Shown here piece by piece: positions 30,001-33,000 of a stretch of 64,000 bases of DNA. This DNA comes from Harriotta raleighana. Lineage: Eukaryota. Position 1 is the first letter of the stretch; each line of letters opens with the position of its first letter. A program made the position numbers. The DNA is taken from NCBI GenBank assembly GCA_050575255.1, contig JBNZDD010013652.1, forward strand, positions 2,637,080 through 2,701,079, written 5' to 3'.

Positions 30001-33000
30001 TATTAGCTGCTGGAAAATTGGTACCCAAATATTACTAGTCTGTTGTTTGCAGATACAGTACACAGAACTAACATCACCCTCCGTATCTCTTACTCTTGTG
30101 TGCAATCCTGTAGCTCAGTGGTTAGAGCACTCGCCTTACAAGGTGAGAACTGCGTTCGAAATCAGGCAGGTTAGGGCGAAACCTTGGGCAAGTTTCCTTC
30201 TTCCACATACCTAATAATGATCCTTCCAAAAAAACACAATAATAAAATTGATCATTTCAATCCACGCCTGTCTGTGGGATACTGCTATGCGCAATTGACA
30301 ACCTCATTACGCCTACAAATATACAGTCAATTTACTTTAGAATTTATTCTGTGAATCGTTTTGAGATGTCTAGAAGATGTGAAAAGCTCTACATCAAATA
30401 CAAGGATTATTATTATTATTATTATTATCGGAGGTGCCATTGTTCAGATGCAAAGTTCAACCAAGGCCTGTCTCATTAACATATTCTTCTGGTGGATGCT
30501 AAAGATCCTATGGCACTATTCAAAAATAAAGGAATTTTCTCCGAGTCTCGTGGCTCATGGCTGCCATGGGATCCTTCTGTGGGTAAAATGGATGTCATTC
30601 ATTTCCATAAGAAAAGTTACTCTACTAATACCCAACTGTAAAGCAAATCCTGTGAGGCACTTTGAAATATTTTGATGCAGTCTGGTGTAAAGGAATTTTC
30701 TCCGAGTCTCGTGGCTCATGGCTGCCATGGGATCCTTCTGTGGGTAAAATGGATGTCATTCATTTCCATAAGAAAAGTTACTCTACTAATACCCAACTGT
30801 AAAGCAAATCCTGTGAGGCACTTTGAAATATTTTGATGCAGTCTGGTGGTTTAAAATCTCAAGTTCTTCTTTATTTGGCCCATTGAGTCTACATGGACTC
30901 TCATAGCAAAGTCTTCTTTTAATTCCACTGCCCTGTGCTAACCCCATGCCAATTCGAGGCTCCATCTTTCATATACTTGTCTCCTTCACTCTTGAAAACC
31001 AAAATGGACTTTGTCTCTACCTCTGTACTTGCCAACGACTCCAATGTGCAATTTTGAGATTCCAAAGGATCAACATGGTATCTGAGAATTAACGATTATT
31101 GTATCACAGACCAGCTCTAAGTCCATGAAGTTCTGTCATGAATAGATCCAAGCAAGTTGTTCCTGTATTCTGAAACAGAATTATTCTGTAAATAATAGAC
31201 ACCACTATCAATTTCTAAATCAAAATTAGCTAGACAGAAAGGATCAGGGATGTTGTTCATTTATAGAATTTCCTGTGAATTGATACACTTAATAAGACCT
31301 TTGTTAGCAACCCGTGTCAGCCTATATCCTGCACTTCTATGCAGATTCAGCTATAGAACTGTATAAAAAAAGTTACACTGTCTTAAATACAATTGTAAGC
31401 TGTTTCNCTATATCCTGCACTTCTATGCAGATTCAGCTATAGAACTGTATAAAAAAAAGTTACACTGTCTTAAATACAATTGTATTTCGTGATCACACCA
31501 ATGTTGATTGCTCCTGTTGAATGTTAACAGCTCAGATCATTTGCATGTGAAAAGCAGGAATGCAGTAATTTCCTTGCTCTGCGTGATATTGTTCTGAAAT
31601 GTCTATATGTTTTATTTCTCAAGCACACTTTCTGGATAAAATAGTTAAAGGTACTGTATGCCTTTTCCTTTCTTCTTGTTTGTTGTGCAGTCTTTGCGCG
31701 TAGAGTAAATAAGTTAACAGATACCTAACCCTCTATCGTCATCTCACTTTCATCCGTCCATGTTTCTGGGATCGATAACGGGTGCATTAACAAGGGCTTA
31801 ATACTGAATTATATCAGCAATACTTTTATCAGACGGTATATCGTACAAGTCAATTAACAGAAATAGAATTGCACTCTTACACATTGCGGTACCTTTGTTA
31901 ACCCACATACTGCAATATTTGAAAATTGCTGAAATGTAATTGAGAACAGTTAGTTCCTGGTAAGCACTATTACTGTAGTTACTGCTGGAAAAAAATAGGT
32001 CACAGAATACACCGTTTTTAAAGAGTAATTTTATCAGTAAAGAAGAAATCAATTGTAACAATGTCAAACATTGTTTGGAAGCGCTGCGTGAAACTGTTAA
32101 GTGGCTTAAAGCAAACTTGATACACGTTTTTAACGATCATGGCACCTCATCTCTCATTAATAGTATTTGTATGCTTTAACAGCATTTTTGAAATATATAT
32201 TTACTTTGAAAAAGTGTTTGTGGAGTTGCATTGCCAAACCTGGCCTATTTAAGTTTAAAGCTTGGATAGTAGACCAGTGTTTCTGCGTTAAAAGGAGCAA
32301 TAGGGATTTTATTTAATTCACTCACATTTTTGTGATTGCAAGCATCCTTTATTTTTAATTCCATTTTTATAAATACAGATTCTGGATATGCCATTACTTT
32401 TTAATTGTGTTTCCAAATTTTTCCTCCTTGTCCATAATAGCAGACAAGATAGGATATAAAGGTAAAGACAAAAGCTCCAGGGAGATTGTTATGAACTATC
32501 CCTCTCTGCTCTCTGTCTTCAAGCACGTCATTTAGTGTTTTCATTTTAGTTATTTATTTGTTCATTTTATTTCCAATGCTCATTTTATTTCTGTTCAGTC
32601 TTTTTATGTTCACTGTGGTTCCTCTGGTATTACGCTTCTACTTGTCTTAAGTAGTTCGACGTGCAAAGCTATTGTTTCTGTTGAAACCCTTGTCTGTCCA
32701 GTTCAGTCCATCTGCAGCCTTGACTCTAATTTGTTAAAGAGTTAGGTGCTCTGAGCTTTGTCTCGTGTTTCTTGGCCTTTGCTTATTCCTTTAAAAGAAA
32801 TGTGAGTTTTAAATTTCTTATTTTCTAATAAGTTATAGCAGTAAATGATCTTACTCTATGTTGTTCATCTATTTATTAGCTACAATAATTTCACATGAAT
32901 AAACTCCAATTCGCGACGAGAGCGACAGATTCCATCTCTGAATTTTGGGTGCTGGAAACAAACATGGATATTGTGTGTCCTTCTGTTAGTCACGAGTCTC

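What the first reader, a model, noticed from the sequence alone, without database searches (positions are those of the whole stretch)
31624..32461. Both Ten3 splice-site-A microexons (27 nt and 21 nt) hidden in the 17.8-kb EGF7-EGF8 intron
Seen: two AG/GT-bounded phase-1 microexons 790 nt apart, encoding AHFLDKIVK and ADKIGYK; neither is in the ORF track. Known: in mouse Ten3, inserts at this position (AHYLDKIVK and a DKIGYK-type insert, from recall) change dimer shape and homophilic adhesion. Inference: if this is a cartilaginous fish, the four-isoform code (none, A1, A2, both) dates to the jawed-vertebrate ancestor. A1 carries a Y-to-F difference here, and automated annotation may omit both exons.
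Basis: partly seen in the sequence, partly recalled or inferred. Interest (0 to 1): 0.75.

Follow-up and report, generated by a model that had tools for sequence, protein, structure and literature searches.

The report
Two teneurin-3 linker microexons, confirmed
Two tiny alternative exons of the brain-wiring gene teneurin-3 really lie in this cartilaginous-fish intron, but the same exons are already annotated in a ray, a skate, bony fishes and mammals, so this is a sound, ordinary finding.

Summary
Window 31624-31650 (27 nt) and 32441-32461 (21 nt) are AG/GT-bounded, frame-preserving microexons that encode AHFLDKIVK and ADKIGYK. They lie in the 17,803-nt intron between the EGF6-7 exon (18215-18400) and the EGF8 exon (36204-36350).

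The gene is a teneurin-3 orthologue. It is closest to Callorhinchus Ten3 (92.3%), against 58-69% for Ten1, Ten2 and Ten4.

Splice-like boundaries alone mean little: the intron holds 32 and 40 such candidates of these two lengths. The peptides are what count, with chance expectations of 3e-5 and 9e-4.

The 16-residue insert is identical to RefSeq Mobula hypostoma Ten3 isoforms X5 and X7. A1 is identical in Callorhinchus isoform X3. A1+A2 also occurs in a skate, sturgeon, paddlefish, teleosts and mammals.

So both exons predate the jawed-vertebrate crown, but databases already hold them. New here: A2 has a TAG|CAG tandem acceptor that can give 21-nt or 18-nt forms. No A2-only isoform appeared in 0 of 222 named models, so the "four-isoform code" is unproven. 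The Y-to-F change is shared by all four chondrichthyan sequences.

The parts
18215..18400 (+). Constitutive exon encoding EGF6-EGF7 of teneurin-3 (186 nt, phase 1 to phase 1). It ends ...EHCTI plus a terminal G.
   Evidence: [11 protein letters not shown]...GEHCTI; tblastn; splice sites.
18401..36203 (+). EGF7-EGF8 intron, 17,803 nt. It holds both microexons and no other Ten3-coding match. It contains N at 19333-19345, 27538 and 31407, left unfilled.
   Evidence: length; no other HSPs; N positions.
31624..31650 (+). Microexon A1, 27 nt, AHFLDKIVK. It is the orthologue of mouse Ten3 splice insert A (AHYLDKIVK).
   Evidence: Identical peptide in Callorhinchus X3 (P0202) and Mobula X5/X7 (P0154, P0155). 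Mouse sequence from PMC11058771 and PMC5851990 (passages).
32438..32443 (+). Tandem (NAGNAG-type) acceptor TAG|CAG of microexon A2.
   Evidence: Read. Both 16-residue (…KADKIGYK) and 15-residue (…KDKIGYK) inserts exist in database isoforms.
32441..32461 (+). Microexon A2, long form, 21 nt, ADKIGYK (uses the upstream TAG acceptor).
   Evidence: Identical in Mobula (P0154/P0155) and Acipenser (P0034).
32444..32461 (+). Microexon A2, short form, 18 nt, DKIGYK (uses the downstream CAG acceptor).
   Evidence: DKIGYK directly after A1 in Rhinoraja, Polyodon, Alosa, Bos, Mustela and Meriones.
36204..36350 (+). Constitutive exon encoding EGF8 (147 nt, phase 1 to phase 1), [33 protein letters not shown]...
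   Evidence: tblastn identity 92-98% to chondrichthyan Ten3.

Best explanation
These are two genuine, evolutionarily conserved cassette microexons of the teneurin-3 gene of a holocephalan-like cartilaginous fish. They are orthologous to splice insert A of mammalian Ten3 (A1, 9 residues) and to a second insert, annotated in databases but barely discussed in print, that follows it (A2, 6 or 7 residues depending on which AG of a TAG|CAG tandem acceptor is used).

Shown here: position, frame, splice signals, Ten3 orthology, and peptide identity with annotated isoforms from rays to mammals.

Inferred from published mouse work: A1 forms a short helical spacer in the EGF7-EGF8 linker. This spacer dislodges EGF6 from its groove on the YD shell/ABD and frees EGF8 to pair with the ABD of the other subunit, giving the A1-type compact dimer with altered homophilic adhesion.

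Inferred here only: A2 lengthens that linker from 9 to 15 or 16 residues and is normally added on top of A1. This would give a graded linker-length series (0, 9, 15, 16) rather than a free 2x2 code. The Y-to-F change keeps the aromatic side chain at a position that belongs to a hydrophobic pocket in mouse.
For: Sequence and frame. Splice signals comparable to constitutive neighbours.

Ten3 orthology: best HSP per exon over 11 exons gives Callorhinchus Ten3 92.3% (680/737), Hemiscyllium 83.6%, Bos 82.7%. Paralogues score lower: Ten1 58-59%, Ten4 64-66%, Ten2 68.6% over the five exons that the 831-aa model covers. A PDB search with exon 58298-58564 gives Ten3 162 bits, Ten2 128 and Ten4 124.

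Peptide matches are unique in the window and far above chance.

Orthologous inserts in named database proteins (parsed):
- Mobula hypostoma X5/X7: AHFLDKIVKADKIGYK (16/16 identical to the window).
- Callorhinchus X3: AHFLDKIVK.
- Rhinoraja: ALFLDKLVKDKIGYK.
- Acipenser: AHYLDKIVKADKIGYK.
- Polyodon, Bos, Mustela, Meriones: AHYLDKIVKDKIGYK.
- Denticeps: AYYLDKVVKADKIGYK.
- Alosa: AHYMDKVVKDKIGYK.
- Cyprinids and other otophysans: AHPETYVQGERIGFK.

In an alignment of 13 A1+A2 isoforms, the first Ala of A1 and the I, G and final K of A2 are invariant.

A1-type inserts also occur in Ten1 (AHYLDAVR, AQYLDNVVK) and Ten4 (AHYLD[KR]VVK). A2-type inserts were seen only in proteins named teneurin-3.

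Mechanism of A1: PMC11058771 (passages read) describes the 9-residue predicted helix, the spacer that dislodges EGF6, and the EGF8-ABD compact dimer. bioRxiv 10.1101/2025.02.28.640769 (passages) reports that Y743, L744 and I747 of insert A plus W769 form a hydrophobic pocket.

An AlphaFold2 model of the natural Mobula segment puts a helix on residues 70-77, which is HFLDKIVK, and no regular structure on A2. Confidence there is low.
Against: There is no transcript evidence for this species, so inclusion, tissue specificity and the use of either AG of the tandem acceptor are unobserved. RefSeq isoforms in other species are computed models; I could not see their RNA support.

The absence of A2-only isoforms (0 of 222) comes from two top-120 lists ranked against A0 and A1+A2 queries, so A2-only models could sit further down.

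The AlphaFold2 model is weak exactly at the inserts: pLDDT is below 50 for residues 72-87, mean pLDDT is 68.4 and pTM is 0.37.

No regulatory-motif pattern stood out. There is one GCATG at -81 of A1 and none near A2, and TGC triplets lie no nearer than -44 and -52.

No function of A2 is described in any paper I could search.
Confidence: 0.9

Rival explanations
1. A free combinatorial four-state code (A0, A1, A2, A1+A2), with A2 used independently of A1.
For: Every donor (18400, 31650, 32461) ends in G and every acceptor completes its own codon, so A2-only is in frame and stop-free. Both exons have their own competent splice sites.
Against: 0 of 222 named teneurin models carry an A2-type insert without A1. 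All 49 clear A2-bearing models (plus 4 Denticeps variants) have it after an A1-type insert. The sampling is biased, so this is weak evidence.
Confidence: 0.3
2. Conserved-looking relics: the sequences persist but are no longer spliced into mRNA in this lineage.
For: There are no transcript data for this genome. Three Ensembl-derived Callorhinchus Ten3 models lack both inserts.
Against: Both exons keep AG, a pyrimidine tract, GT and an open frame. The 16 residues are identical to a ray's annotated isoform, and A1 is identical to Callorhinchus RefSeq X3. Unselected 48 nt would not stay identical at the protein level across holocephalan-batoid divergence; that the divergence is deep is recalled, not computed here.
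Confidence: 0.04
3. Chance pseudo-exons: AG/GT-bounded open stretches that merely resemble the inserts.
For: Such stretches are plentiful: 32 (27 nt), 40 (21 nt) and 545 (9-51 nt) in this intron.
Against: The peptide matches are unique in 128,000 six-frame positions, with expectations of 3e-5 and 9e-4. They lie on the right strand, in the right order, phase and intron, and match other species 16/16.
Confidence: 0.01
4. A2 arose as a tandem duplicate of A1 (both read A-x-DKI-x-K) after Ten3 split from its paralogues.
For: A1 AHFLDKIVK and A2 ADKIGYK share A, DKI and the terminal K, and both end AAAG|GT. A2 was seen only in Ten3, while A1-type inserts are in Ten1, Ten3 and Ten4.
Against: The flanks (150 nt either side) show no similarity above shuffles: score 22, and 84 of 300 shuffles reach it. 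Seven residues are too few to establish homology.
Confidence: 0.15

Closest known systems
Mouse/human teneurin-3 splice insert A (A1, AHYLDKIVK) between EGF7 and EGF8
   Same: Same gene (orthologue), same intron, same 27-nt phase-1 cassette, and 8 of 9 residues identical (PMC11058771 and PMC5851990 passages). The solved mouse Ten3 structures 8R50, 8R51 and 9IGS carry it and 8R54 lacks it.
   Different: F replaces Y at the third residue, which is Y743 in mouse, a member of a hydrophobic pocket according to bioRxiv 10.1101/2025.02.28.640769. No functional data exist for the F form.
RefSeq teneurin-3 isoforms X5/X7 of Mobula hypostoma (P0154, P0155), X2 of Rhinoraja longicauda (P0163) and X3 of Callorhinchus milii (P0202)
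   Same: Chondrichthyan Ten3 models that already contain the same inserts. Mobula is 16/16 identical (A1 plus the 21-nt A2). Callorhinchus A1 is 9/9 identical. Rhinoraja has A1 plus the 18-nt A2.
   Different: They are other species (window exons are 80-92% identical to them). These are computed models whose RNA support I could not inspect.
A1+A2 isoforms of bony vertebrates (Acipenser X4, Polyodon X17, Bos indicus X1, Mustela X2, Meriones, Denticeps, Alosa, cyprinids)
   Same: Same two-insert layout at the EGF7-EGF8 junction. The xKIG[YF]K core of A2 is invariant at I, G and K in 13 of 13 aligned sequences.
   Different: Y instead of F in A1. Otophysan teleosts have a strongly diverged pair (AHPETYVQ + GERIGFK). 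No solved structure or searchable paper deals with A2.
A1-type inserts of teneurin-1 and teneurin-4, and the site-A insert of teneurin-2
   Same: Same position between EGF7 and EGF8. Ten1 (AHYLDAVR, AQYLDNVVK) and Ten4 (AHYLD[KR]VVK) share the AHYLD-type sequence. Tucker et al. 2012 (PMC3278476, passage) note such variants in chicken Ten2, mouse Ten3 and mouse Ten4.
   Different: No A2-type addition was seen in Ten1 or Ten4 among the listed hits. The Ten2 constructs in the PDB carry an unrelated 9-residue insert (GRQTAGTET) at this site.
Paired neuronal microexons meA/meB of PTPRD and other LAR-family receptor tyrosine phosphatases
   Same: Works alike: two tiny cassette exons in a synaptic adhesion receptor that tune trans-synaptic binding. 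PMC12626420 (passage) draws this comparison for teneurins, meaning inserts A and B.
   Different: Unrelated proteins. For Ten3 the published pair is A and B, not A1 and A2.

Membership tests
Teneurin-3 (TENM3/ODZ3) orthologue | Exons more similar to Ten3 than to Ten1, Ten2 or Ten4 | tested here: met
   Best HSP per exon: Ten3 80-92%, Ten1 58-59%, Ten4 64-66%, Ten2 68.6% (partial model). PDB search: Ten3 162 bits, Ten2 128, Ten4 124.
Teneurin-3 (TENM3/ODZ3) orthologue | Teneurin ectodomain exon order (EGF repeats, cysteine-rich region, TTR and FN-plug region) on one strand | tested here: met
   Eleven collinear + strand HSPs from 1279 to 60203, in the order of the reference proteins.
Ten3 splice insert A (A1) | Cassette located between the EGF7 and EGF8 exons, frame-preserving | tested here: met
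   31624-31650 lies inside intron 18401-36203; 27 nt, phase 1.
Ten3 splice insert A (A1) | AHYLDKIVK-type sequence | tested here: met
   8/9 identical to mouse (papers). 9/9 identical to Callorhinchus X3 and Mobula.
Ten3 splice insert A (A1) | Alternative inclusion in mRNA, enriched in neural tissue | not testable with these tools
   No transcript data for this genome. Database isoforms with and without the insert exist in other species.
Ten3 splice insert A (A1) | Switches the ectodomain dimer to the EGF8-ABD compact form and alters homophilic adhesion | not testable with these tools
   Known for mouse only (PMC11058771 passages). The AlphaFold2 model of the Mobula segment shows a helix over A1 at low confidence.
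Second site-A microexon (A2, DKIGYK-type) as annotated in RefSeq Ten3 isoforms | Lies downstream of A1 and upstream of EGF8, frame-preserving, xKIG[YF]K sequence | tested here: met
   32441/32444-32461. 7/7 identical to Mobula and Acipenser, 6/6 identical to mammals. I, G and K invariant in 13/13 sequences.
Second site-A microexon (A2, DKIGYK-type) as annotated in RefSeq Ten3 isoforms | Included in mRNA | not testable with these tools
   No transcript data. Support is indirect, from models in other species.
NAGNAG tandem acceptor | Two AG dinucleotides three bases apart at the 3' splice site | tested here: met
   TAGCAG at 32438-32443.
NAGNAG tandem acceptor | Both AGs used, giving isoforms that differ by one residue | tested here: inconclusive
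   Both ...KADKIGYK (4 models) and ...KDKIGYK forms occur across species, even between sturgeon and paddlefish. I never saw both in one species, and I could not read other genomes' DNA.
SRRM4/nSR100-type neuronal microexon (recalled definition) | Length of 27 nt or less | tested here: met
   27 nt and 21 or 18 nt.
SRRM4/nSR100-type neuronal microexon (recalled definition) | UGC-containing element close upstream of the 3' splice site; neural-specific inclusion | tested here: inconclusive
   Nearest TGC triplets lie at -44 and -49 (A1) and -52 (A2), which is not distinctive. Tissue specificity is untestable here.

The most novel reading that the evidence does not exclude
Site A of teneurin-3 is not a binary switch. 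It is an ancient, ordered linker-length ladder: 0, 9, 15 or 16 residues. A2 is added only on top of A1, and a conserved TAG|CAG tandem acceptor adds or omits one alanine. All of this would have been in place in the last common ancestor of jawed vertebrates and would be specific to Ten3 among the four paralogues. The A1+A2 forms would then specify one or more Ten3 dimer geometries and adhesion specificities that no structural or functional study has examined: solved structures carry A1 or nothing, and the A2 sequence appears in no searchable paper.
Probability: 0.3. Interest if true: 0.5.

Novelty: already known. Interest (0 to 1): 0.25.

Why it matters
A1 is a well-studied switch of teneurin-3 dimer shape and neuronal recognition. 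Finding it intact in a chimaera-like genome, with an aromatic-preserving Y-to-F change shared by all chondrichthyans seen, confirms that the switch is at least as old as jawed vertebrates. A1-type inserts also occur in Ten1 and Ten4, so it is probably older.

The more useful point is A2. It is conserved from rays and chimaera-like fish to mammals and has an invariant IG.K core. Yet it is absent from the structures and from the papers I could search, which model Ten3 as four isoforms (A0/A1 x B0/B1). Anyone studying Ten3 isoform codes, or annotating chondrichthyan genomes with pipelines that miss exons of 18-27 nt, should include it.

As a genome-scan finding it is correct but not a discovery: the same exons are already in RefSeq models of related species.

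Tried and rejected
1. Joined model. I did not search or fold a joined EGF7-A1-A2-EGF8 model from the window. Searches used single exons or natural database proteins.

2. First protein search. A single EGF6-7 exon with 'longer' lengths reached only proteins of 108-2000 aa. It gave mostly Ten2 fragments and could not assign the paralogue. It was superseded.

I therefore could not see the other members of the Hemiscyllium cluster (163 members) or learn whether this species' own isoforms are annotated.

4. Berns et al. 2018 (PMC7282895) is not held. Any further site-A variants it lists stayed unseen.

5. Literature for A2. 'DKIGYK' gave 0 papers. 'Tenm3' + 'microexon' gave 5 papers, none on A2 in the passages read. 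'teneurin' + 'A2B1' gave only hnRNP A2B1 hits. 'teneurin' + 'NAGNAG' gave 0.

6. A1/A2 duplication. Flank alignment is not above shuffles (84 of 300 reach the score).

7. Regulatory motifs (GCATG, TGC, YCAY, CU-rich) around both exons showed nothing distinctive.

8. AlphaFold2 of the Mobula EGF6-EGF8 segment with a 13-sequence alignment. Mean pLDDT is 68.4 and the inserts fall below 50. The helix over A1 is only suggestive and nothing can be said about A2. No fold search was made on it.

9. Odd 'inserts' in Ensembl-derived models (GRAGTGTM, GLTDTVVLT, AVSSFVLT) have no counterpart in the window. Only GRHTLDRL maps, to intron read-through at 18400. I treat the others as gene-model artefacts or lineage-specific.

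10. Intron conservation across vertebrates could not be tested.

11. Cyclostome teneurins were not seen in either top-120 list, so nothing can be said about ages older than jawed vertebrates for A2.
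Full report
WHAT IS THERE

- A1 is 31624-31650: ag|CACACTTTCTGGATAAAATAGTTAAAG|gtactg, 27 nt.
- A2 is 32441-32461: tag|CAGACAAGATAGGATATAAAG|gtaaag, 21 nt.

Read in the genomic frame that starts on the G of each acceptor AG, they give AHFLDKIVK and ADKIGYK. That G is the same base as the last G of the upstream exon, so no joining is needed to see the peptides.

The upstream exon (18215-18400) ends ...GEHCTI plus G, with donor GTAGGG. The downstream exon starts at 36204 with AAGGTTGCCC, giving EGCPGLC. 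The intron between them is 17,803 nt.

All three donors end in G. Every splice combination is therefore in frame, and each junction codon is dictated by the acceptor exon.

An 18-nt form (32444-32461, DKIGYK) is just as readable as the 21-nt form.

The window contains N at 19333-19345, 27538, 31407 and 59765. I left these as they are.

IS IT MORE THAN CHANCE

The splice-like boundaries alone are not evidence. The intron holds 32 AG-27nt-GT, 40 AG-21nt-GT and 56 AG-18nt-GT stretches that are open in phase 1, and 545 over lengths 9-51 nt.

The peptides are the evidence. Across all six frames of the 64-kb window, only one 9-mer is within three mismatches of mouse AHYLDKIVK and only one 6-mer is within one mismatch of DKIGYK. 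From the window's own six-frame residue frequencies, the expected counts are 3.2e-5 (at most one mismatch) and 9.1e-4 (exact). Both matches sit on the coding strand, in the right order, phase and intron.

The splice signals match those of neighbouring constitutive exons. Pyrimidines at -23..-4 are 15/20 and 16/20, against 13-17/20. Donor consensus matches are 6/9 and 7/9, against 6-7/9. One comparison row (exon i) had a wrong coordinate and is disregarded.

WHICH GENE AND WHICH ORGANISM

Stop-to-stop ORFs show a series of teneurin EGF, cysteine-rich and FN-plug exons on the + strand. tblastn of named database proteins against the window works exon by exon. It gave these identities over 11 exons:
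- Callorhinchus milii Ten3: 92.3% (680/737)
- Hemiscyllium Ten3: 83.6%
- Bos Ten3: 82.7%
- Mobula Ten3: 81.6%
- Heptranchias Ten3: 80.4%
- Rhinoraja Ten3-like: 79.5%
- Danio Ten3: 75.9%
- Ten1: 58-59%
- Ten4: 64-66%
- a partial Ten2 model: 68.6%
.

A single exon (58298-58564) searched against solved structures scores 162 bits on mouse Ten3, 128 on Ten2 and 124 on Ten4.

The window is therefore the Ten3 orthologue of a cartilaginous fish. It is nearest to, but not the same as, the elephant fish, so it is a holocephalan-like species. It is not human.

RELATIVES OF THE TWO INSERTS

My spliced model may only be searched exon by exon, and the microexons are too short to search alone. I therefore left the joined step out and used natural database proteins as probes instead.
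- Probe 1 was the sturgeon Ten3 fragment P0014, residues 494-676, against longer proteins. It found 1476 hits at E<=1e-20 among 1492 candidates, with the best 120 listed.
- Probe 2 was sturgeon isoform X4 (P0034), residues 817-896, which naturally carries both inserts. It found 1102 hits among 1109 candidates, with the best 120 listed.

After dropping three proteins without a source name, 222 distinct named proteins were parsed for the sequence between the end of EGF7 and GCPGLC:
- 96 have nothing there.
- 47 have an A1-type insert only.
- 49 have A1+A2 (45 of 15 residues, 4 of 16).
- 30 have other content. This group includes four Denticeps models with a 17-residue A1+A2-like variant, Ensembl-style fill-ins, and six that my pattern could not parse.

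The key rows are:
- Mobula hypostoma Ten3 X5 and X7 carry AHFLDKIVKADKIGYK, identical at 16/16 to the window.
- Callorhinchus milii RefSeq X3 carries AHFLDKIVK.
- Rhinoraja longicauda X2 carries ALFLDKLVKDKIGYK.
- Acipenser X4 carries AHYLDKIVKADKIGYK.
- Polyodon X17, Bos indicus X1, Mustela X2 and a Meriones model carry AHYLDKIVKDKIGYK.
- Denticeps carries AYYLDKVVKADKIGYK, and Alosa carries AHYMDKVVKDKIGYK.
- Cyprinids, loaches, catfish, Hoplias and Chanos carry AHPETY[VI]Q[GA]ERIGFK.

In a 13-sequence alignment of such isoforms, the first Ala of A1 and the I, G and last K of A2 are invariant.

A1-type inserts also occur in Ten1 (AHYLDAVR, AQYLDNVVK in Callorhinchus, AQHLDNVVK in Scyliorhinus and Rhinoraja) and in Ten4 (AHYLDRVVK in rodents, AHYLDKVVK in fishes and Chiloscyllium). 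A2-type inserts were seen only in proteins named teneurin-3.

Three Ensembl-derived Callorhinchus Ten3 models lack both inserts. Two of them carry GRHTLDRL instead, which maps to simple read-through of the EGF7 donor (window GRALLDRL at 18400, 6/8 identical).

Both exons are present in Holocephali-like (this window), batoid and osteichthyan Ten3 genes. They were therefore in the jawed-vertebrate ancestor, and that inference stands. Because Ten1 and Ten4 share it, A1 is probably older than the paralogue split.

The Y-to-F difference is real but not peculiar to this genome. All four chondrichthyan Ten3 sequences seen have F (window, Callorhinchus, Mobula, Rhinoraja).

The "four-isoform code" is not supported as stated. 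No model of 222 has A2 without A1. This absence is weak evidence, because both hit lists were ranked against A0 or A1+A2 probes.

The statement that the A2-type insert alters dimer shape and adhesion in mouse could not be verified.
- Gogou et al. 2024 (PMC11058771, passages), the 2025 microphthalmia preprint (10.1101/2025.02.28.640769, passages), Jackson et al. 2018 (PMC5851990, passages) and a 2019 review (PMC6608557, one passage) all treat only the 9-residue insert.
- DKIGYK occurs in none of the searchable papers.
- Berns et al. 2018 is not held, and supplements are closed.
- Solved Ten3 structures carry A1 (8R50, 8R51, 9IGS) or nothing (8R54), never A2.

HOW IT MOST LIKELY WORKS

Shown in mouse by others (passages of PMC11058771): insert A is predicted to be a 9-residue helix in the EGF7-EGF8 linker. 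[quoted passage not shown] With it, EGF6-7 become flexible and EGF8 pairs by beta-sheet extension with the ABD of the partner subunit. The result is a distinct compact dimer with reduced homophilic clustering.

Y743, L744 and I747 of the insert, together with W769, form a hydrophobic pocket in molecular dynamics (preprint passages). F at the Y position keeps the ring and loses only the hydroxyl.

Inferred here: the orthologous chondrichthyan A1 does the same job. A2 extends the spacer by 6 or 7 residues, to 15 or 16.

An AlphaFold2 model of the natural Mobula EGF6-EGF8 segment places a helix on HFLDKIVK and no regular structure on A2. However, pLDDT is below 50 across residues 72-87 and the mean is 68.4, so this is only a hint.

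I found no distinctive splicing-regulator motifs and no evidence that A2 is a duplicate of A1 (84 of 300 shuffles reach the flank alignment score).

COMPARISON WITH THE KNOWN, AND NOVELTY

This is the same system as Ten3 splice site A. It passes every membership feature that sequence can test (position, frame, sequence, paralogue). The features that need RNA or protein work remain open.

The identical 16-residue insert is already annotated in a ray, and A1 is annotated in the elephant fish. I therefore rate the finding as already known.

What is mildly new is the explicit statement that A2 is as old as jawed vertebrates, appears Ten3-specific, carries a tandem acceptor, and has been left out of structural and functional work.

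VERDICT

The finding is ordinary but correct. Interest is 0.25.

The boldest reading still open is an ancient, ordered linker-length ladder with an unstudied A1+A2 dimer state. I give it a probability of about 0.3.

Noticed in passing
window 19843-19914 (-), 22881-22951 (-), 37152-37209 (+); related ORF-like fragments e.g. 14411-14731, 22624-22839, 28007-28222, 30252-30479, 50333-50650, 52096-52320, 61411-61785: Three tRNA-like matches at Rfam gathering score sit next to a much-repeated element. Its pseudo-translations recur on both strands (…[35 protein letters not shown]…). This looks like a tRNA-derived SINE family that litters the Ten3 introns.
   Followed up: partly
window 3014-3337 (+) and 63139-63559 (-): ORF fragments with the reverse-transcriptase-like motif GSVLGPQLFT.YINDLD. 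These are decayed LINE-type retrotransposon pieces inside introns.
   Followed up: no
window 18401-18450 (+): Read-through of the EGF7 donor stays open for 16 codons ([16 protein letters not shown], then stop). Two Ensembl-derived Callorhinchus Ten3 models carry the homologous GRHTLDRL as a false 'insert'. There is no GT after 24 nt in the window, so it does not look like a usable alternative donor here.
   Followed up: partly
PDB chains 9G2H/9G2F (Ten2) and protein P0003 (Anas Ten2 X12), not in the window: The Ten2 constructs carry a 9-residue site-A insert, GRQTAGTET, unrelated to AHYLD. A duck Ten2 isoform ends in GRQTTGTETGTYCF... directly after EGF7. This suggests the Ten2 insert comes from extension of the EGF7 exon into the intron, not from an A1-type cassette.
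   Followed up: no
window 10917-11117 (+), the 201-nt exon encoding an EGF pair ([10 protein letters not shown]...PDCSV): Callorhinchus Ten3 X3 (P0202) and Heptranchias Ten3 X6 (P0152) give only paralogous-EGF matches to this exon (37% and 43%, against 85-97% for other Ten3 models). Those isoforms therefore seem to skip this symmetric phase-1 exon, which would be another alternative event in the EGF stalk.
   Followed up: no
window 19333-19345, 27538, 31407, 59765: N characters. One lies 217 nt upstream of A1. They were left as they are and do not touch any exon or splice site discussed.
   Followed up: no
proteins P0158-P0196 and others (otophysan teleost Ten3), not in the window: In cyprinids, loaches, catfish, Hoplias and Chanos both inserts are strongly diverged (AHPETYVQ + GERIGFK) yet still present together. 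A1-only forms (AHPETYVQ) also occur. The IG.K core of A2 is the only part conserved in all 13 aligned sequences.
   Followed up: partly
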